DNA from: Dictyostelium discoideum | Taxonomy: Eukaryota | Direction: 5' to 3' | DNA: 64,000 nt | Assembly: GCA_000004695.1 (NCBI GenBank) | Contig: CM000155.2 | Coordinates: 288,001-352,000, forward strand | Shown: positions 7,090-64,000 of the stretch, one piece after another | Position numbering within the stretch: position 1 is the stretch's first letter | Layout: every line of letters begins with the position of its first letter | The notes under the pieces: generated by a model | Told to the model about the DNA's origin: nothing | The model's input: only the letters and a program-made list of their open reading frames with translations | Database searches by the model: none | Made by a program: the position numbers and the translations under genes

Positions 7090-7516
7090 AATAAAAATAA
7101 AAATTGATTAATTAAAATTAAAATAATTTTTATTTTTATATTTATTTTTATATTTATTTATTTTTTTTATTCTTATTTTTTTCTAAATCTAAATTTATAA
7201 TTTGGTTTAAATCATTTAAATTAATAATTTTCAAATTTTAATTACAAAAATAAAAATTATTTGAAATTTTTTCACAATCAAAAATAAAAAAATATCTTTT
7301 TATGTGTGATTTTGAATTGATTTCAAAGAATAGATTTTTTTTTTTTTTTTTTTTTTTTTTGTGTTAAAAAAAAAAAAAAAAAAATTCTTTTCACAAAAAA
7401 AAAAAATAAAATAAAAAAAAATATATATTATTAAATTATCAAATTATTTATTTGTTTAATTTATTTTATTGTTAATAAATTGGAAAATAAAAAAAAAAAA
7501 ATTATTTATTTATATA

Positions 7517-45291: not shown

Positions 45292-48043
45292 TTATTTGTT
45301 TGATGAGAGCAGCACCAACAGAATCAACACAACCAATTGTAATACCTGAAATTGCCCACCTGATAGTTTGGATGATTCACTATTTCCTTCAGCACCGATT
45401 GATGGTGATGGAGATATTGATATTTGAATTTCTTCAATTTTAACATCATAATTATATGATGTTGAGCCTAATTGGAGATATAATACTCCTGATGTTTCAT
45501 TAACAAATGAATTTGAATGGCATGATAAACAATCAGTACTATTTGTAATATCGATTTCATTTGAACTTAATATTGGATTACTATCATAAAATGTTTCATT
45601 TGGTGATAAACTACATTGTAAATTACATAAAAGAGAAACATTTTGTGATGAAAGTGCCAAGCTTGCATGAATATTACCTGATAAACCAACACCACCCACT
45701 GTTATTGAAATACCTTCTTTTTTATTTTTAATGGTTGGAACAACTGTAATCTTTGGTTTAAAATATGTTAAGAATGCATTTGGTCCTAAATTATCTCCAA
45801 TGAATGTTGAAACAAGTAGTGGACTCTCTATACTATCAGTTCTGACTATTAACATCTTTTCATCATGAGTAATAATCGTGGTATTTTTATTATTTGCTAA
45901 TACTTTAACTTTGAATTCATCTTCATTTGTTAATAAATTCTTACCAGAAACTGTGATTGTACCTCCACAACCAATTGTTTTATTATCTATATTTATTATA
46001 CCATTAATAACAGGTGGAAATGTTAAACTAAATAATGATTCCATATTAATTCCATCTACAGTAATATCAATTGGACCATAATCATATGAATTCAATGTTT
46101 TAATTGTTAATTGATTATCTTTTAATGCTAAAATTTCTGATGAAATATCATTACCATCGAAATAGACTTGAATTAATGGTATTGAGTTACCGAAATTATT
46201 TCCATGAAATGTAATATTAAATTGATCTTTAGAAAATTTACGATGCTCGATTATTGGAGGAGCATATGAGTATCCATCACTAACTGTCTCTGAGTTTAAT
46301 TTGAATATGAATTGTTTATTTAAACCAGTACCATATGGTGTTGAACATTTTGTTTTATAGTAACCAGATGTTAATGATTGTGATGATGGTATTGAACATT
46401 GGGTGGCTGATGATGAATTACCAATAGTAATACTTGGTGTTGATGATGAAATTAATGGACAATCCATATAATATATTTCAATATTTAATGTTCCATTAGA
46501 TACATTTGGTCTATTAATTACATTAATAATTAATGATGCAGAAATTGAAATTGTATTTGAGGAAATATTAGAACGAGTAAAACTAATATTAAAAGATCTA
46601 CATCTTAAATGAGGTAATTTAAATGTTAAACTCTTTTCATCAGATGTAACATTTAATTGGTCAATTTTTAAATAACTATTAGTTCCATCAGCATACAATT
46701 GAACGAATGATTCTTTATTTTTACCAAAATTTGTACCAATTAATGTAACGAAACCATTTGAATATGATCCACTTGATAATGTTGGAATATTATATGTAAA
46801 TGATACATTATTATTACTTGTTGAATTGCAACCTCCGAAATTAACGTTAACTGGTAAATCTCTACCACCATATTCATTTGGATCTAATTGACATTCTAAT
46901 TCGTTTGTTGTTGATTTAATTAATGTACATTGTTTATTTCCAATTGTAATTGAGGGTTTCAATGATGGATATAAAGTCGAAGATAATTTAACACCTTTAA
47001 TTGTTACAATACCTCCTAAATAATTTGATACTGATGATATTGATGTTATTATTGCTGGAAAACAATGAGTAAAATCCTTTTGAAGAGTAATTTTATTTAC
47101 CTTAATATTAATAGACATTGGACCAAGATCAGGTCTACTAAAGTTATTCACTTGAATTTGTGTATGATTTACTGAAATTATAAAATTTGTTTGATTAATA
47201 CCTCCCAGAAAAACCTCTACCAACTTTTTATCTGTAAAGAAGTTATCACCATTAATTGTTAATATCCCTAATGATTCGTCTGAAACAGTACTTGATATTT
47301 TAGGTGATTTGTATGAAAATGGAATAGGAAAATCACCTTCATCTTCAAAGTTAATTTCAAAATTTCCAGAACCTGGTGGAAATGATACAGTGATATTATT
47401 ACAGTCAAAAGAAGGATCAGAGAAATTACCTTTAACAACAAAAGAAACACCATTTCCATAGTTACTTTTAATAAAATTAGGACCTCCCCTGAATCTTAAA
47501 TAATTACCAGTAAATACTACATCACCTCCAGACGTTGCCGGTTTTTTATTAAACTTGATATCACTTACAAATTGAAATGTATATCCAGTACCAGAAAATT
47601 TATCTATATCTGTAAGATTAAATGAACAATTTTCAACTGGATTTGATAGTTCTTTTGCACATACCTTACTATGAGCACTACCCCATAATCTTGAGAATGG
47701 TTCATCTGAATGGAATGTACAAAGTCTCATACTACCAACAACGACACTACAATTGAAATAATTTGGTGCCATTTCATATCTGGGTGTTGTTTCGTTTTGA
47801 TACATAATTAAACGGGTAGGGTAAGAACGATCGCTTGGATAATTAAAATAATGTATTGTAAATGATTTTTCACTAATTGTTGCAACTAATTAAAATAAAT
47901 TAATTTCATAAACAAATTAATTATCAATAATTAAAAATATAATGATACTTACTATATGCCATTGGATCTTCCATTGAATATGGATATCCTAATTTAAAAA
48001 TTGAGAATAAAAAAAAAACTAGTAATATTATTTTATTTTCCAT
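45292..48043 (-). CDS. IPT/TIG-domain single-pass/GPI cell-surface glycoprotein (Tgr-like family candidate); main exon 45292..47886, candidate signal-peptide exon 47953..48043
   Basis: Main ORF of 837 aa. Clear IPT/TIG signatures: [25 protein letters not shown]...[11 protein letters not shown]...ELECQLDP, and [28 protein letters not shown]. The C-terminal TM is [21 protein letters not shown]. Upstream exon [30 protein letters not shown] + A has donor GTAAGT, and the only acceptor is TTAATTAG at 47888-47887. However the junction is phase 1 into phase 0, and a TAG stop lies at 47889-47887. So the 5' structure is inconsistent as read (frameshift/pseudogene or my error). Confidence 0.6.
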
Positions 48044-54383: not shown

Positions 54384-54745
54384 CTTTAATTATTATATAA
54401 ATAAATAAGATGTTGGTTTCTTTTTTTAAAATCAGTTGGTTACATTCAATGAATTATTTTCATTATTGAATTATTATTATTATTTTTATTATTATTTACC
54501 GCCAATACATTTAAAACTATTGGTTGTTTGATATTTATTTTTACTAATGAATAAGTTTTCTATCCTCGTGTAATTTGGTGTTCAAATTGATAATGTTCCA
54601 AAAAAACCAATAATCTAAAATGAATCCATAAAAAGAAATATAAATTTTATTTTATTTATAATTATATTCTCAACGATTTAAATCATTTAATTATTTTATT
54701 ACTTTCGTTTAGGCGCTTTTTTTCCCTGCAGTCAGGAAAAAATAA

Positions 54746-55712
54746 TTTAAAATTTCCCTACAACAGAAATTACAATTTTAAATGGAGACCAACTAACCCG
54801 TACTGAAATTTATTATGAATTACCAATAAAATCAAGTTGTTCAATTGTTTCGAACCAAATGATTAAATGTCTTGGTAATTTTATAAATTATTTAGATTTA
54901 TTTAAAAATGGTAAAATTAAAATACAATTTTCAATATGATTATAATTGATAATATCATAAACCAGTGGAGTTGAAAACAAGAGATTGGTTTACAAATTTA
55001 ATCGATGGAGTTATATCAATTTTAAAATCTGGAGAAGTTACATCACAAACAATTAGATATATATAACTTGAACTGGCTTCATTGAGAATGAAAATGGATC
55101 ACTCATAAAAATAATTGGATTGTGATGAATTATTAATTAATGGTGAAAATTTTAATGAAAATACAATTTACAATACATCTGTATATTGCTTTTCAAAAAA
55201 ACAAGTTTATAATTGTTCATTTATAAACTATACATCTATCTCATGTGATATTGAATTGGTAGGTCCATTCGATCAACTTTGTAAAATCAAATTTAATGGG
55301 TAAAGATGAGAATTATAATATTTCAATATCATATTATCCTCCATTAGTTTTAAATTCAACAAAGATTTCGAATTCATCGATTAGTGGAATTATTACAATT
55401 TTTGGTAATGAATTTTATAATCAAATTGATTTAATTACAGTTGGTAAAAGTAAATGTTTAAACTCTACATTTATAAATTCAACATCGATTTCATGTTTTG
55501 TAGAACCTTCAAATTTTATTATTAATCAAACTGAACAACAACAACAACAATATGTTAACATTACAATTAATAGCAAAAGTGGTGGTAATAATTTAATAAT
55601 TTATTCTGGTAATTCAAATAGAATTGATGAAAATAATAAATCAAATAAAAATACAATTGATGATAAACAAACCAACAATGAAATCAAAAATGAATCCATA
55701 AAAGAAATATAA
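54746..55712 (+). pseudogene. Truncated, rearranged 3' fragment of a tandem-family IPT/TIG gene (copy 0): no 5' part, internal ~165-bp inversion, frameshifts
   Basis: It aligns by eye to 58635..59624 of the intact copy. The segment ~54955..55120 is the reverse complement of the equivalent of 58820..58985, which is why minus-strand [18 protein letters not shown]-type ORFs appear antisense in the intact copies. Reading frames are broken (ORFs 55115..55303 and 55296..55712 are in different frames). Confidence 0.7.
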
Positions 55713-56608
55713 ATTTAATTTTATTTATAATTATATTCTCAACGATTTTAATCATTTAATTAAATTTATTACTTTCGTTATAAAAAAAATTAAACTCACA
55801 CCAAAAACAATGATTTAGTATATATAAAAATGATTATTTTTAGTGGTTTTGTGTCAAATAAAAAAAAATAATAATACAATAATAAATTTTGAACATGTTG
55901 TTTTTTTTTTTTAATTTTTTTTTTTTTAATTATTTTTATAATAATTATTTTTTTGTTTTTACTATTTGATAAGTGTGTTATTGTGAATTTTGATAATTAA
56001 AATAATATATAAAAATCAAAAATAATTAAAAATATTACCACTTCTCATAAACTACTTTTTATGGTAGTGGTTGAAAAAAAAAAAAAATAATAATAATTTT
56101 AATTTCAATTAAAAAAAACAAGCCCAAAAAAGTTTAATACAATAAATAGTATTCTAATATGATGAAAGAAACATCAAGTGGTGGGTGGTAAACTTGGCAC
56201 ACAGTGTTAAAAAAAAACAATATGAGTAATATTGAAAATCATACAACAAAACTGATAATATTAAAAGAAATTAGTGGGATGTGTGTGTTGAAAAACATTT
56301 TTCAATAAATTATGTGATTGTTTATTTTTAATTTAATATTGAAGCATTACCTTATTGTTTTTATTATTATTTTTATTATTATTATTTTTTTTTTTTTTTT
56401 TTTTTATTATCAATATTTTTGTTTTTTTTAATTATTATTAATATTTATGTTTTTTTTTAATTATTAATATTTTTGTTTTTAAAAAATTTTTATAATTATT
56501 ATTTTTATTTTTAAATAATTTTTTTTCCAACCCAAACCCGTAATATTAAATTTTTTTCCCTTTTCAAAAAAACAATTTCATTATTAAAATAATAAATAGT
56601 AAATCAAA

Positions 56609-56768
56609 ATGAAATTTTTTATATTATTTTTTATTTTATATTTAGTTTCTGATACATTAGGACATTTAAATGAACCAGTTGTCAAGAGTAAATATTTAAT
56701 ATAAAAATAATTTAATCTTTTTTTTTATATTGTTTTTTCCGGTTTGGGTTTTTTTTTTTTTCCAAATT

Positions 56769-57018: not shown

Positions 57019-59624
57019 AGTTTAAAATTAATATCTATAAATATTAATATTAATAAATATTAATCATTTAATAGATACATTCTCTATATTTTTGTATTTT
57101 TTTAAAAAGAAATCGATGGTTTCCAACACTAATTTTTTCTAATGATTTTATTTTAATTTCAGATTTTACATACACAAAACAATCATTGGAATATACATAT
57201 GATATTGATAGTACATATTATATAAAATGGATTTTTTCAAATTTGGAATATGAATTGGTTTTTGAATGTAAAAATAATAGCAAAGAAAGAACATGTACTG
57301 CTGGTATGTCCATTGATATTGCTAAAAATTTACATGGTCAAATAAAGGTATGCATACGTGGAATTGATAATAATGGTGTATTAGATTGCCATATTGCTTT
57401 TTATGAAGAATATTTTCCAAAGCCAATTATTGAAGGTGACTTTAAACCATCTACCAAAGGTGGTCCTACTATTATGAAAGGTTATTATTTGGCAATTGGT
57501 GCATACTACTATACCATTATCCCTGATACTAGATTGGGTATAATAGGTGATATTTTTAGTAACTCTATTGATGTCACAAATTTAATACTAGACTATAAAG
57601 GTGGTTGTGGCCCAGGAACTATTCAATGGTCAAATGATTTTAAATATAGTTTCAATCATTCAAATCCAATCATTGAAAATATTTTTATTGAAGGTTCATC
57701 TTTTATATCAAAAGGTTCTAATTTTTGTAATTCTTCTGATTCAATTCAAATTTATTTAGATGGTGTTCAAATTGATAAATCAAAAATAAAATCAATTGAT
57801 CATGAGCAATTTGAAATAATTTACACTCAACTATATTCAAAATCAATCAATGTTAAAATAGTATCTGGTGGACTTGAATCGAATATTTACAAATTGGATT
57901 TTAAACCGATACCTTTAAAAATTAATAGTGTTCCAAGATTAAAAGGTGGTTCAGTTACAATAATTGGTGAAAGACTATCTCCACAAGTATATAATTCAAC
58001 AATCATTGTTAAAATTGGTCAATATGATTGTAAAAATGTAATCTCATCAAAAAATGAAATTCTCTGTAATTTAGAATCGGTTCAAAATGTTGAAAAGGTT
58101 AAATTGGTAGATTTACAAGTTAATATCTCAATAAATGGTATTTTTAATGAAAATAATTTATTATTCTCATTCGATGTACCAATAATGTCAGATTTTATAC
58201 TTCCTCAAGGTGAAGTTAAATTAGTTGGTGATTGTTTTGGTTCTTCACAATTGACTCAAGTTAAAATTGACGATGTGTTACAATCCAATATAACAATTAA
58301 TATTAATGAAAAAGAAACAACACTTTCATTTAAGCCAATTAAACCAATTAAAAAATCAAAGTTATATATAATTGTCAATGGTACAAAATCAAATACTATT
58401 GAAATTGATTCATCATTTTTTGTAAAAAGTGTTCCATCTTCACCTTCAGTAAATGGTCAAATTGTAAACTTTACACTTTTCAATATAAATCCAAATAATG
58501 TAAATGCAACACCAATTATGATTTTTCAAAATAATAGTTCAATAAATGCAATTGATTATAAAAATTCAAATGAATACTCAACTCACACATACTCCTTTGA
58601 TATTCCAAAAAGTTGTGGGAGAAATGAGATTACAATTTTAATTGGAGACCAACTAACCCGTACTGAAATTTATTATGAATTACCAATAATATCAAGTTGT
58701 TCAATTGTTCCAAATCAAATGATTAAATGTCTTGGTAATTTTTTAAATTATCTAGATTTATTTAAAAATGGTAAAATTAAAATACAATTTTCAAATATGG
58801 TAATAATTGATAATATTCCAAACAATTCAATTATTTTTATGAGTGATTCATTTTCATTCCCAATGAAGCCAGAGTATAGTTCAAGTGATATATATCTTAT
58901 TGTTTGTGATGAAACTTCTCCATATTTTAAAGTTGATATAACTCCATCGCTTAAATTTGTGAGCCAATCTCTTGTTTTCAACTCCACTGGTGGTGAATTA
59001 TTAATTAATGGTGAAAATTTTAATGAAAATACAATTTACAATACATCTGTATATTGCTTTTCAAATAAACAAGTTTATAATTGTTCATTTATAAACAATA
59101 CATCTATCTCATGTGATATTGAATTGGTAGGTCCATTCGATCAACTTTGTAAAATCAAATTTAATGGTAAAGATGAGAATTATAACATTTCAATATCATA
59201 TTATCCTCCATTAGTTTTAAATTCAACAACGATTTCGAATTCATCGATTGGTGGAATTATTATAATTTTTGGTAATGAATTTTATAATCAAATTGATTCA
59301 ATTACAGTTGGTAAAAGTAAATGTTTAAACTCTACATTTATAAATTCAACATCGATTTCATGTTTTGTAGAACCTTCAAATTTTATTATTAATCAAACTG
59401 AACAACAACAACAATATGTTAACATTACAATTAATAACAAAAGTGGTGGTAATAATTTAATAATTTATTCTGTTAATTCAAATAGAATTGATGAAAATAA
59501 TAAATCAAATAAAAATACAATTGATGATAAACAAACCAACAATGAAATCAAAAATGAATCCATAAAAAGAAATATAAATTTAATTTTATTTATAATTATA
59601 TTCTCAACGATTTTAATCATTTAA
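56609..59624 (+). CDS. IPT/TIG-domain cell-surface glycoprotein, intact copy (copy 1) of a tandemly repeated Tgr-like family gene; two exons, 56609..56687 and 57163..59624
   Basis: Signal-peptide exon [26 protein letters not shown] + A ends at donor GTAAAT. A 475-bp AT intron with a long poly-T follows; acceptor AATTTCAG at 57161-57162 (phase 1). The tool's Met at 57186 is TTG. IPT motifs are present, e.g. [25 protein letters not shown]...[10 protein letters not shown]...EILCNLES. The C-terminus is the hydrophobic [15 protein letters not shown]. Confidence 0.7.
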
Positions 59625-59868
59625 TTAAATTTATTACTTTCGTTATAAAAAAAAATTATACTCCCACCAAAAACAATGATTGAGTATATATAAAAAATGA
59701 TTATTTTTAGTGGTTTTGTGTTAAATAAAAAAAAAAAAATACAATAATAAATTTTGAACATGTTGTTTTTTTTTTTTTATATTTTTTTTTTTTTCTAATT
59801 ATTTTTAAAATAATTTTATTTTTTTTTTTTATTGGTTTTACTGTTTGGGTTATTTTTAATCTCAAATT

Positions 59869-59922
<54 letters not shown>

Positions 59923-60467
59923 TTTGATTATTGTTGTTATTTACTATTTTTAATTTTTTAATATTAAAGTCTCCAAATATTCAGCTATTGTTTATTTTTT
60001 ATATCATTGTTAATGTCATTAATAACTATAACTAGTTATTAATATAAATAAATATCAATCATTTTGTAGATATATTATCTATTTATGTATTTTATAAAAG
60101 ATATTGATAATTTCCAACACCAATTTTTAATTTTTTTATTTGGTTCATTAATATTTTTTTAAAAATTTTTCAATGTTTTAACCAGTTGTCAATGTAATTA
60201 AAGATATTTGCAATTGTTTATTAAAAAAAAAAAAAAAAATTGTTTGTTATTTTTTTAAAAAAAAAAAAAAAAGAGCTACTGTTCATTTTTTAATAAATTA
60301 ATTTTAAATTAATATCTATAACTATTAATATTAATAAATATTAATCATTTATTAGATACATTATCTCTATTTTTTGTATTTTTTTTAAAAAGAAATCAAT
60401 AGTTTCAACACTAATTTTTTCTTATGATTTTATTTTAATTTTAGATTTTACATGCACAAAACAATCA

Positions 60468-63400
60468 TTGGAATATACATATGATATTGATAGTACATAT
60501 TATATAAAATGGATTTTTTCAAATTTGAAATATGAATTGGTTTTTGAATGTAAAAATAATAGCAAAGAAAGAACATGTACTGCTGGTATGTCCATAGATA
60601 TTGCTAAAAATTTACATGGTCAAATAAAGATGTGCGGAACTGATAATAATGGTGTATTAGATTGCCATATGCGTGTATACGAAGAATATTTTCCAAAGCC
60701 AATTATTGAAGGTGACTTTAAACCATCTACCAAAGGTGGTCCTACTATTATGAAAGGTTATTATTTGGCAGTTGGAGTAATTCCTTACTTTACTATTATC
60801 CCTGGTACTATATTGGGAACAATAGGTGATATTTTTAGTAACTCTATAGATGTCACAAATTTAATACTAGACTATAAAGGTGTTGTGGCCCAAGAACTAT
60901 TCAATGGCCAAATGATTTTAAATATAGTTTCAATCATTCAAATCCAATCATTGAAAATATTTTTATTGAAGGTTCATCTTTTATATCAAAAGGTTCTAAT
61001 TTTTGTAATTCTTCTGATTCAATTCAAATTTATTTAGATGGTGTTCAAATTGATAAATCAAAAATAAAATCAATTGATCATGAGCAATTTGAAATAATTT
61101 ACACTCAACTATATTCAAAATCAATCAATGTTAAAATAGTATCTGGTGGACTTGAATCGAATATTTACAAATTGGATTTTAAACCTATACCTTTAAAAAT
61201 TAATAGTGTTCCAAGATTTAAAGGTGGTTCAATTACAATAATTGGTGAAAGACTATCTTCACAAGTAAATAATTCAACAATCATTGTTAAAATTGGTCAA
61301 TATCATTGTAAAAATGTAATCTCATCAAAAAATGAAATTCTCTGTAATTTAGAATCGGTTCCAAATGTTGAAAAGGTTAAATTGGTAGATTTGCAAGTTA
61401 ATATCTCAATAATGGTATTTTTAATGAAAATAATTTATTATTCTCATTCGATGTACCAATAATATCAGATTTTATACTTCCTCAAGGTGAAGTTAAATTA
61501 GTTGGTGATTGTTTTGGTTCTTCACAATTGACTCAAGTTAAAATTGACGATGTGTTACAATCCAATATAACAATTAATATTAATGAAAAAGAAACAACAC
61601 TTTCATTTAAGCCAATTAAACCAATTAAAAAGTCAAAGTTATATATAATTGTCAATGGTACAAAATCAAATACTATTGAAATTGATTCATCATTTTTTGT
61701 AAAAAGTGTTCCATCTTCACCTTCAGTAAATGGTCAAATAGTAAACTTTACACTTTTCAATATAAATCCAAATAATGTAAATGCAACACCAATTATGATT
61801 TTTCAAGATAATAGTTCAATAAAAGCAATTGATTATAAAAATTCGAATGAATACTCGACTCACACATACTCTTTTGATATTCCAAAAAGTTGTGGGAGAA
61901 ATGAAATTACAATTTTAATTGGAGACCAACTAACCCGTACTGAAATTTATTATGAATTACCAATAATATCAAGTTGTTCAATTGTTTCAAATCAAATGAT
62001 TAAATGTCTTGGTAATTTTACAAATTATTTAGATTTATTTAAAAATGGTAAAATTAAAATACAATTTTCAAATATGATAATAATTGATAATATTCCAAAC
62101 AATCCAATTATTTTTATGAGTGATTCATTTTCATTCCCAATAAAGCCAGAGTATAGTTCAAGTGATATATATCTTATTGTTTGTGATGAAACTTCTCTAG
62201 ATTTTAAAGTTGATATAACTCCATCGCTTAAATTTGTGAGCCAATCTCTTGTTTTCAACTCCACTGGTGGTGAATTATTAATTAATGGTGAAAATTTTAA
62301 TGAAAATACAATTTACAATACATCTGTATATTGCTTTTCAAATAAACAAGTTTATAATTGTTCATTTATAAACAGTACATCTATCTCATGTGATATTGAA
62401 TTGGTAGGTCCATTCGATCAACTTTGTAAAATCAAATTTAATGGAAAAGATGAGAAGTATAACATTTCAATATCATATTATCCTCCATTAGTTTTAAATT
62501 CAACAACGATTTCGAATTCATCAATTGGTGGAATTATTACAATTTTAATTGGAGACCAACTAACCCGTACTGAAATTTATTATGAATTACCAATAATATC
62601 AAGTTGTTCAATTGTTTCAAATCAAATGATTAAATGTCTTGGTAATTTTACAAATTATTTAGATTTATTTAAAAATGGTAAAATTAAAATACAATTTTCA
62701 AATATGGTAATAATTGATAATATTCCAAACAATCCAATTATTTTTATGAGTGATTCATTTTCATTCCCAATGAAACCAGAGTATAGTTCAAGTGATATAT
62801 ATCTTATTGTTTGTGATGAAACTTCTCCATATTTTAAAGTTGATATAACTCCATCGCTTAAATTTGTGAGCCAATCTCTTGTTTTCAACTCCACTGGTGG
62901 TGAATTATTAATTAATGGTGAAAATTTTAATGAAAATACAATTTACAATACATCTGTATATTGCTTTTCAAATAAACAAGTTTATAATTGTTCATTTATA
63001 AACAATACATCTATCTCATGTGATATTGAATTGGTAGGTCCATTCGATCAACTTTGTAAAATCAAATTTAATGGTAAAGATGAGAAGTATAACATTTCAA
63101 TATCATATTATCCTCCATTAGTTTTAAATTCAACAACGATTTCAAATTCATCAATTGGTGGAATTATTACAATTTTTGGTAATGAATTTTATAATCAAAT
63201 TGATTCAATTACAGTTGGTAAAAGTAAATGTTTAAACTCTACATTTATAAATTCAACATCGATTTCATGTTTTGTAGAACCTTCAAATTTTATTATTAAT
63301 CAAACTGAACAACAACAACAATATGTTAACATTAAAATTAATAGCAAAAGTGGTGGTAATAATTTAATAATTTATTCTGGTAATTCAAATAGAATTGATG

Positions 63401-63531
63401 AAAATAATAAATCAAATAAAAATACAATTGATGATAAACAAACCAACAATGAAATCAAAAATGAATCCATAAAAAGAAATATAAATTTAATTTTATTTAT
63501 AATTATATTCTCAACGATTTTAATCATTTAA
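60468..63531 (+). pseudogene. Degenerate tandem copy (copy 2) of the 56609..59624 gene: signal exon region deleted, frameshifts, and an internal in-frame 630-bp tandem duplication
   Basis: It has the same N-terminal [17 protein letters not shown]... as copy 1, but the frame breaks after ~190 codons (three successive ORFs 60468.., 61172.., 61528..). The block starting GGAGACCAACTAACCCGTACTG occurs at 61921 and again at 62551. The ~0.8 kb upstream that carries the signal exon in copy 1 is missing. Confidence 0.7.
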
Positions 63532-64000
63532 TTTAATTTATTATTTTCGTTATAAAAAAAAAATTAAACTCCTACCAAAAAAAATTATTGAGTATATATA
63601 AAAAATGATTATTTTTAGTGGTTTTGTGTTAAATAAAAAAAAAAAATAATACAATAATAAATTTTGAACATGTTGTTTTTTTTTTTTATAATTTTTTTTT
63701 TTTTTAATTATTTTTAAAATAATTATTTTTTTGTTTTTACTATTTGATAAGTGTGTTATTGTGAATTTGATAATTAAAATAATATATAAAATCAAAAATA
63801 ATTAAAAATATAACCACTTCTCATAAACTACTTTTTATGGTAGTGGGTGAAAAAAAAAAAAATAATAATTTTCATTTCAATTAAAAAAACAAGCCCAAAA
63901 AAGTTTAATACAATTAATAATATTCTAATATGATGAAAGAAACATCAAGTGGTGGGTGTGGTAAACTTGGCACACAGTGTTAAAAAAAAACAATATGAGT

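What the first reader, a model, noticed from the sequence alone, without database searches (positions are those of the whole stretch)
61921..63180. In-frame 630-bp (210-codon) internal tandem duplication inside copy 2
The block beginning GGAGACCAACTAACCCGTACTGAAATTTATTATG... occurs at 61921 and again at 62551. It duplicates the [17 protein letters not shown]...[25 protein letters not shown] segment without breaking frame. This is a domain-scale duplication of roughly two IPT-like modules. It shows how repeat number in these adhesion proteins can change by unequal crossing-over.
Basis: seen in the sequence. Interest (0 to 1): 0.5.

Follow-up and report, generated by a model that had tools for sequence, protein, structure and literature searches.

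The report
Internal duplication in a dead tgr gene
A real, in-frame 630-bp head-to-tail duplication sits inside one member of a Dictyostelium cell-surface (Tiger/tgr) gene array, but that member is a pseudogene, so it is an ordinary relic of rearrangement in a fast-turnover gene family rather than a working longer adhesion protein.

Summary
Window 61906-63176 is two head-to-tail copies of a 630-bp unit. The copies differ at 8 positions, and the reading frame stays open through both. The window is Dictyostelium discoideum AX4 chromosome 6, in a tandem array of TgrO1-like Tiger (tgr) genes. An independent de novo assembly has the identical duplication, so it is not an assembly artefact.

The host gene ("copy 2") is a pseudogene. 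It lacks exon 1 (start codon and signal peptide). It also carries two 1-bp deletions upstream of the duplication, and both are present in the second assembly.

The unit holds two complete beta-sandwich modules. Its ends, however, cut through beta-strands of the flanking domains, not domain borders. The two breakpoints share only an 11-nt microhomology (ATTACAATTTT; chance about 5e-5). This points to microhomology-mediated slippage or template switching, not homologous unequal crossing-over.

Six of the eight differences between the copies lie at sites that also vary among paralogues, which suggests later gene conversion.

No annotated protein in any genome searched carries this duplication. 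A wild isolate has an independent in-frame 207-bp duplication starting a few bases away.

Verdict: a real but ordinary feature of a known, dynamic family. Interest is low.

The parts
61906..62535 (+). Unit A of the 630-bp tandem duplication (maximal register)
   Evidence: Period-630 identity starts exactly at 61906; the repeat finder families D2-D4 and D8.
62536..63165 (+). Unit B of the tandem duplication
   Evidence: There are 8 substitutions relative to unit A, at unit-A coordinates 62077, 62142, 62145, 62198, 62200, 62375, 62445 and 62514.
61906..61916 (+). 11-nt microhomology ATTACAATTTT at the left breakpoint; it recurs at the junction (62536-62546) and at the right end (63166-63176)
   Evidence: Flank and junction sequences compared. 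The chance of 11 nt or more at random breakpoint pairs in this gene is 5e-5.
62536..62546 (+). Novel junction: ...GGAATT|ATTACAATTTT|AATTGGAGACC
   Evidence: A 26-mer spanning the junction occurs only here and in the equivalent copies of the second assembly.
63166..63176 (+). Third copy of the microhomology, at the right end of the repeat tract
60445..63531 (+). Copy 2: pseudogene body, equivalent to exon 2 of copy 1 and including the stop codon
   Evidence: Alignment to copy 1; tblastn of P0001 in three different frames; ORFs 60468-61037, 61172-61462 and 61528-63531.
60881..60882 (+). Frameshift 1: 1-bp deletion (GGTGGTTG in copy 1 becomes GGTGTTG)
   Evidence: identical in the second assembly.
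61410..61411 (+). Frameshift 2: 1-bp deletion (AATAAATGG in copy 1 becomes AATAATGG)
   Evidence: identical in the second assembly.
59625..60444 (+). Region upstream of copy 2 that lacks exon 1. About 730 bp present upstream of copy 1 (55960-56693, including exon 1) has no counterpart here
   Evidence: blastn of the two intergenic regions. A search for the signal-peptide motif finds only the copy 1 exon at 56609.
56609..56687 (+). Copy 1 exon 1 (start codon and signal peptide [18 protein letters not shown]...)
   Evidence: Splice junction read from the sequence and matched to P0001.
57163..59624 (+). Copy 1 exon 2. With exon 1 it encodes P0001 (XP_635221.1, 846 aa), an intact paralogue with a single unit at 58629-59269
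   Evidence: 100% identity to P0001; one unit only.
54766..55712 (+). Copy 0: a 5'-truncated gene fragment whose homology begins 3 nt from the left breakpoint of the duplication, with an inverted piece at 54961-55124
   Evidence: tblastn; boundary read base by base.

Best explanation
The feature is a microhomology-mediated, in-frame tandem duplication of 630 bp inside a decayed member of a tandem array of TgrO1-like Tiger (tgr) genes on D. discoideum AX4 chromosome 6.

Proposed mechanism (inferred). During replication or break repair, the nascent end at the right-hand ATTACAATTTT (codons I-T-I-F of the last TIG domain) re-annealed to the identical 11-mer 630 nt upstream (codons I-T-I-L of the second Ig_TgrO1 domain). 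The interval was then copied a second time.

Content of the unit. It carries the last 13 residues of the Ig_TgrO1 domain, two complete beta-sandwich modules of about 88 aa each, and the first 21 residues of the terminal TIG domain.

Later events. The two copies diverged at 8 sites, mostly by short gene-conversion-like exchange with paralogues. The host gene is dead in this lineage: it has no exon 1 or signal peptide, and it has two frameshifts. The duplication therefore has no protein-level effect now. The whole pseudogene was afterwards copied again as part of an 11.4-kb segment, at least in the second assembly.

Shown directly: the duplication, the junction, the lesions, and the domain mapping onto the paralogue model. 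Inferred: the slippage/template-switch mechanism, the gene conversion, and the order of events.
For: Repeat geometry and the 8 differences. Organism and family: P0001 is 100% identical and lies on a 3,602,379-bp AX4 contig; Pfam gives Ig_TgrO1 at 113.8 bits and TIG at 42 bits.

Pseudogene status: two 1-bp deletions relative to the intact copy 1 split the gene into three frames, and exon 1 is missing. Both deletions and the duplication are identical in an independent de novo assembly, described as Nanopore plus Illumina in PMC12745789.

Microhomology: 11 nt at both breakpoints, with P about 5e-5 for random breakpoints.

Domain mapping: Pfam on the separate pieces. In the AF2 model of P0001 (mean pLDDT 72.7), the breakpoints fall in strands 513-520 and 724-730.

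Gene conversion: 6 of the 8 A/B differences lie at sites where both states occur in other copies (hypergeometric P about 2e-4).

Uniqueness: the junction 26-mer occurs only in this lineage. All 8 wild-strain paralogues examined have a single unit. No protein in the collection covers more than 60% of the 667-aa ORF.

[quoted passage not shown] Clusters consist of gene and pseudogene pairs, with gene conversion among them (bioRxiv 10.1101/2025.10.22.684067).
Against: The 3' ORF stays open for 667 codons, and the frame-repaired copy 2 has no nonsense codon. About 3 would be expected from 57 neutral substitutions (5.5% of point changes give a stop). dN/dS against copy 1 is 0.47. Most divergence therefore predates inactivation, and I cannot tell whether the duplication arose while the gene was still functional.

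An automated annotation of the second assembly calls a 963-aa product here, so a spliced product cannot be formally excluded without RNA data.

The slippage or template-switch mechanism is inferred from the junction alone. An unequal exchange between sister chromatids or paralogues at the same 11-mer would leave the same scar.

The identity of the second assembly as strain AX2-214 is my inference from its near-identity to the window.
Confidence: 0.8

Rival explanations
1. Copy 2 is a working gene, and the duplication gives a longer Tiger adhesion protein with two extra IPT-like modules.
For: The ORF is open through both copies. dN/dS between A and B is about 0.4-0.5, and there are no nonsense codons. 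The second assembly's automated annotation predicts a 963-aa product.
Against: Exon 1 with the start codon and signal peptide is absent. Two 1-bp deletions lie inside sequence that is continuous coding in copy 1 and in all paralogues, and both are confirmed in a second assembly. AX4 has no protein record for this locus. The 963-aa model is 93 residues shorter than 846+210, so it must skip conserved domain sequence. With only 8 differences, the A/B dN/dS is uninformative.
Confidence: 0.06
2. The duplication arose by homologous unequal crossing-over between pre-existing similar IPT repeats.
For: The product is a perfect head-to-tail, in-frame repeat. The family is known for recombination and duplication (PMC12745789).
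Against: Outside the 11-mer the two breakpoint regions are no more alike than chance. The left end lies in an Ig_TgrO1 domain and the right end in a TIG domain, at non-equivalent strand positions. There was therefore no extended homology to cross over in.
Confidence: 0.1
3. The two units come from two different parental sequences (two paralogues or alleles) joined by an unequal exchange at the 11-mer. On this view the A/B differences are parental rather than post-duplication.
For: Six of the 8 A/B differences are at sites polymorphic among paralogues, with both states present. Unit A shares T/G at 62198/62200 with the 844-aa paralogue, while unit B shares C/T with copy 1.
Against: A and B share derived states against copy 1 at 8 sites and are closer to each other (8 differences) than to any paralogue (10-17). 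The shared-with-paralogue states are scattered, not in one block. That pattern fits short conversion tracts after an intragenic duplication.
Confidence: 0.15
4. Assembly artefact: a falsely expanded repeat.
For: Tandem arrays of near-identical paralogues are hard to assemble.
Against: The copies differ at 8 sites. An independent de novo long-read plus short-read assembly reproduces every base.
Confidence: 0.01

Closest known systems
Tiger (tgr) gene family of Dictyostelium: clusters of genes and pseudogenes, especially the rapidly duplicating tgrAHIO clade (PMC12745789; bioRxiv 10.1101/2025.10.22.684067)
   Same: Same organism. Same domain set (Ig_TgrO1 plus IPT/TIG, signal peptide, C-terminal TM in the intact copy). 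Tandem array mixing intact genes, a frameshifted copy and a truncated fragment. Mosaic similarity among paralogues.
   Different: The main text of those papers describes whole-gene and locus-level duplication, recombination and pseudogenisation. I found no mention there of an in-frame intragenic duplication of modules or of microhomology junctions. I could not retrieve the dictyBase gene or pseudogene name for this copy.
Microhomology-mediated internal tandem duplications, e.g. FLT3-ITD in human leukaemia (from general knowledge, not tested here)
   Same: Head-to-tail, in-frame duplication inside a coding exon, with short microhomology at the junction and no filler.
   Different: This one is germline and evolutionary rather than somatic, is much longer (630 bp), lies in a pseudogene, and no gain of function is shown.
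Repeat-number variation in Ig-like or tandem-repeat adhesins (yeast FLO/ALS genes, bacterial Bap/Aap-type adhesins) by unequal recombination (from general knowledge)
   Same: Changes the number of beta-sandwich modules in a cell-surface protein by tandem duplication.
   Different: Those systems recombine between long, highly similar pre-existing repeats at equivalent positions. Here the founding event joined non-equivalent positions of two different domain types through 11 nt.

Membership tests
Tiger (tgr) protein family (TM, IPT/TIG, Ig-like E-set repeats) | IPT/TIG domains and the TgrO1-like Ig domain | tested here: met
   Copy 1: Ig_TgrO1 113.8 bits (cut-off 27.9) and TIG 42 bits (cut-off 20.9). 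Copy 2 3' ORF: Ig_TgrO1 60.4 bits. The last TIG scanned alone scores 27.1 bits. Foldseek finds strings of Ig/IPT domains, including plexin IPT3-6.
Tiger (tgr) protein family | N-terminal signal sequence | tested here: not met
   Copy 1 has [18 protein letters not shown] on exon 1 (56609-56687). Copy 2 has no homologous exon; about 730 bp are missing. No formal signal-peptide predictor was run.
Tiger (tgr) protein family | C-terminal transmembrane segment | tested here: met
   The hydrophobic tail [17 protein letters not shown] is present in copy 1 and copy 2. It is a helix at 826-845 in the AF2 model. This rests on sequence and model only, not on a TM predictor.
Pseudogene (non-functional paralogue) | Disabling lesions relative to an intact close paralogue, and not sequencing errors | tested here: met
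   Two 1-bp deletions and loss of exon 1, identical in an independent assembly.
Pseudogene (non-functional paralogue) | No functional transcript or protein | not testable with these tools
   No expression data are available here. The literature says most tgr members are weakly expressed.
Tandem duplication by homologous unequal crossing-over | Extended sequence homology at the two parental breakpoints, at equivalent positions of repeated units | tested here: not met
   Only 11 nt are shared. The breakpoints lie in different domain types at different strand positions.
Microhomology-mediated tandem duplication (slippage, template switch or MMEJ) | Short microhomology present once at each parental end and once at the junction, head-to-tail, without filler | tested here: met
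   ATTACAATTTT at 61906, 62536 and 63166. The chance of 11 nt or more is about 5e-5.
Domain-precise module duplication | Breakpoints at inter-domain linkers, so that only whole domains are added | tested here: not met
   P0001 residues 518/519 lie within strand 513-520, and residues 728/729 within strand 724-730. The Pfam envelopes agree.

The most novel reading that the evidence does not exclude
The roughly 28-nt stretch encoding N-E-I-T-I-L-I-G-D (window 61898-61925) may be a recurrent rearrangement hotspot in TgrO1-like genes. Four apparently independent lesions end there: the 630-bp duplication; the 5' truncation of copy 0; an in-frame 207-bp duplication in a wild isolate's intact-looking paralogue; and a 7-nt insertion in a distant paralogue of a cryptic species. 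If this reflects a site-specific fragility or slippage-prone motif (AATT-N2-AATT-N2-AATT), it would be a built-in way of varying module number in this recognition-gene family.
Probability: 0.15. Interest if true: 0.45.

Novelty: new member of a known kind. Interest (0 to 1): 0.2.

Why it matters
The feature is a clean, dated-by-sequence example of how module number in Ig/IPT-repeat surface proteins can change. The founding step here was an illegitimate, microhomology-mediated duplication that cut through domains, not recombination between repeats. It happened in a family already known for birth-and-death evolution. It also warns annotators: the open 667-codon ORF and an automated 963-aa gene model look like a long adhesin, yet the locus is a pseudogene. 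No new biology or long-standing question depends on it. The only mildly surprising element is the clustering of independent breakpoints within a few bases.

Tried and rejected
1. Tandem Repeats Finder missed the repeat because its period limit is 500. The repeat finder and direct comparison were used instead.

2. I tried to get the dictyBase name of the gene or pseudogene from paper text and supplements. Only accessions were obtained (XP_635221.1 / Q54EL9 for copy 1). No tgr letter-number name can be given.

3. I tried to model the hypothetical duplicated product around the junction. MAFFT placed all homologue fragments on one copy (A2) or misaligned module Y onto module X (A3), so I did not spend the second AF2 job. 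The domain mapping rests on the model of the intact paralogue.

4. An apparent fifth boundary at residue 520 (the N-terminus of P0029) proved to be only a gene-model ATG. Homology continues upstream to about residue 507, so it was dropped.

5. Assembly artefact was rejected.

6. dN/dS between the two units (5 non-synonymous to 3 synonymous; the extra non-synonymous count is the boundary codon) has too few sites to indicate selection.

7. No ORF of 80 aa or more lies on the minus strand under the repeat.

Full report
OBSERVATION. The sequence at 61921-62550 and 62551-63180 is two blocks of 630 nt that differ at 11 positions. The last three of these are simply the right boundary, leaving 8 substitutions (98.7% identity). 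Identity at a spacing of 630 begins exactly at 61906 and ends at 63176. The repeat tract is therefore 2 x 630 nt plus a third copy of an 11-nt boundary motif. The copies abut without filler, and a single 667-codon ORF (61528-63531) reads through both. Tandem Repeats Finder did not report the repeat only because its maximum period is 500.

WHERE WE ARE. The window is about 20% G+C. The intact neighbour ("copy 1": exon 1 at 56609-56687, exon 2 at 57163-59624) encodes a protein 100% identical to XP_635221.1 / Q54EL9 of Dictyostelium discoideum AX4, on a contig of 3,602,379 bp. Pfam finds the TgrO1-like Ig domain (113.8 bits) and IPT/TIG (42 bits), both above their cut-offs. An AF2 model (mean pLDDT 72.7) is a string of beta-sandwich modules between an N-terminal helix (signal peptide) and a C-terminal helix (TM). 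Foldseek matches multi-Ig/IPT ectodomains, including plexin IPT3-6 and MET. This is a member of the Tiger (tgr) family. The literature describes that family as 38 genes plus 26 pseudogenes in AX4, arranged in clusters of gene/pseudogene pairs, with the tgrAHIO clade among the fastest-duplicating (PMC12745789; bioRxiv 10.1101/2025.10.22.684067). The + strand of 54.6-64 kb carries four elements in order: a short 3' remnant, a 5'-truncated and partly inverted fragment (copy 0, 54766-55712), intact copy 1, and copy 2 (60445-63531). The upstream region of a further copy follows at the window's end.

COPY 2 IS A PSEUDOGENE. When copy 2 is aligned to copy 1, the only indels inside coding sequence are a 6-bp deletion, a 3-bp insertion, the 630-bp insertion and two 1-bp deletions. 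The 1-bp deletions change GGTGGTTG to GGTGTTG at 60881/2 and AATAAATGG to AATAATGG at 61410/1. They place the homologous coding sequence in three different frames (tblastn) and break it into ORFs of 189, 96 and 667 codons. Exon 1 is also gone. About 730 bp present upstream of copy 1 (55960-56693, including the start codon and signal peptide) has no counterpart upstream of copy 2. AX4 has no protein record for this locus.

An independent de novo assembly (GCA_054883475.1) confirms these lesions. The study behind it used Nanopore plus Illumina reads, and I infer the strain is AX2-214 because the sequence is near-identical to the window. It matches the window base for base from 60258 to 64000, so both frameshifts, the duplication and all eight A/B differences are real. 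That assembly's automated annotation calls a 963-aa product here. This is 93 residues short of 846+210, so it must skip conserved domain sequence, and I do not regard it as evidence of function.

The frame-repaired copy 2 has no nonsense codon among 57 substitutions against copy 1, where about 3 would be expected if all were neutral. Its dN/dS is 0.47. Inactivation is therefore recent relative to the divergence of the copies. I cannot say whether the duplication came before or after it.

ANATOMY OF THE UNIT. The unit corresponds to P0001 residues 519-728.
- Pfam on separate pieces shows that the second Ig_TgrO1 domain runs to "...[11 protein letters not shown]" (profile positions 4-80 of 81).
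- The last TIG domain begins about 20 residues before "[11 protein letters not shown]" (27.1 bits).
- The piece before that TIG is weakly TIG-like (19 bits, just under the cut-off), and the piece before that has no Pfam match.
- In the AF2 model the left breakpoint (518/519) lies in strand 513-520, the penultimate strand of the Ig_TgrO1 domain (last strand 523-530).
- The right breakpoint (728/729) lies in strand 724-730, the second strand of the last TIG (first strand 711-714).

The unit therefore consists of 13 residues of Ig_TgrO1 tail, module X (about 533-618), module Y (about 620-707), and 21 residues of TIG head. The cut, however, is through strands and not at linkers. A translated product would have a roughly 34-residue chimeric stub between Y and the second X.

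MECHANISM. Both parental breakpoints carry ATTACAATTTT: on the left GAA|ATTACAATTTT|AATTGG, on the right ATT|ATTACAATTTT|TGGTAA. The motif occurs once at the junction. Outside it the flanks are unrelated. Random breakpoint pairs in this gene share 11 nt or more with probability about 5e-5. The right-hand 11-mer is intact in copy 2 and in most paralogues but interrupted in copy 1 (site 62540). This is the signature of microhomology-mediated slippage, template switching or end joining. It is not the signature of homologous unequal crossing-over, which needs far longer homology at equivalent positions. Once two 630-bp copies exist, unequal crossing-over could change their number, but no such product was seen.

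AFTER THE DUPLICATION. A and B share eight states that differ from copy 1 and are closer to each other (8 differences) than to any paralogue (10-17 differences). The event was therefore intragenic in the copy 2 lineage. Six of the eight A/B differences lie at sites where both states occur in other copies (hypergeometric P about 2e-4). For example, unit A shares T/G at 62198/62200 with the 844-aa paralogue. Only two differences (62142, 62375) are private to A. I read this as short gene-conversion tracts from paralogues, which fits the literature on this family. The 1.3% divergence between the units is therefore not a clock. The split of 5 non-synonymous to 3 synonymous changes is uninformative.

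DISTRIBUTION. A 26-mer across the junction occurs only in the window and in the second assembly, where it occurs twice. There the pseudogene sits in an 11.4-kb higher-order repeat (846/856 aa - pseudogene - 844 aa). The two pseudogene copies differ only in homopolymer length, so this is the most recent event. Eight paralogues recovered from two wild D. discoideum assemblies each have a single unit. No protein among 5.8 billion covers more than 60% of the 667-aa ORF, and all 27 annotated homologues with a full-length unit match carry it once. Module number does vary in the wider family: some members end after module X.

SEEN IN PASSING. A wild isolate's paralogue (the P0005 gene, L004 11940-12353) has an independent, in-frame 207-bp (69-codon) tandem duplication whose left end lies 6-8 nt from the left end of the 630-bp event. 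Copy 0's homology starts 3 nt from that same end. A more distant paralogue in a cryptic species has a 7-nt insertion at the same codons, which ends its ORF. Other fragment ends lie elsewhere. Four lesions within about 28 nt is suggestive of a slippage-prone spot (AATT-N2-AATT-N2-AATT).

VERDICT. The interpretation needs three corrections: the host is a pseudogene, the breakpoints cut through domains, and the origin was microhomology-mediated rather than unequal crossing-over. This is an ordinary product of a family already known for rampant duplication, recombination and pseudogenisation. It is a new instance of a known kind, of low interest. The possible breakpoint hotspot is the only lead worth a follow-up.

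Noticed in passing
L004 11940-12353 (GCA_054859355.1, gene of P0005): A wild D. discoideum paralogue with an apparently intact 920-aa model has an independent in-frame 207-bp (69-codon) tandem duplication with 1-2 mismatches between its copies. It covers NEITISIGDQ...DNIPNNP. Its left end is 6-8 nt from the left breakpoint of the 630-bp duplication.
   Followed up: partly
window 54618-55712: A roughly 75-nt remnant of a gene's 3' end (54618-54692) is followed by about 70 nt of unrelated filler. Next comes a 5'-truncated copy (copy 0) whose homology begins at 54765/6, 3 nt from the equivalent of the duplication's left breakpoint. Copy 0 contains an inverted segment at 54961-55124.
   Followed up: partly
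L008 ~7270-7290 (GCA_054859205.1, gene of P0038): A 7-nt insertion or duplication (ATTGAAA|ATTGGTAAT) sits at the same I-T-I-E/G-N codons in a distant paralogue. It shifts the frame and ends the 393-aa model. This is the fourth lesion within about 28 nt of the same site.
   Followed up: partly
L001 2296-23170, L002, L003 (GCA_054883475.1 contig JBTAPE010000005.1): In the second assembly the array reads fragment-846-963(dup)-844-856-963(dup)-844-857-1087. This is an 11.4-kb higher-order tandem repeat whose two periods are nearly identical over about 8 kb. The window ends too early to tell whether the AX4 reference has both periods.
   Followed up: partly
window 46249-47544 (- strand): A distant tgr-like coding region (26% identity to P0001 residues 121-536) lies on the opposite strand about 7 kb upstream of the array.
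   Followed up: no
window 63850-63958 and 56079-56187: A conserved block (86% identity) lies about 500 bp upstream of exon 1 of the copies. In another assembly's annotation this block was read as a spurious N-terminus (MMKET..GGCGKL, P0002).
   Followed up: no
window 60445-61000 versus 63200-63531: Copy 2 is itself mosaic. Its 5' part resembles the 1087-aa paralogue P0004 (VGVIPYFTIIP.., KMCGTDNN), while its 3' tail is the short copy 1/844-type tail. This is consistent with recombination or conversion among paralogues.
   Followed up: no
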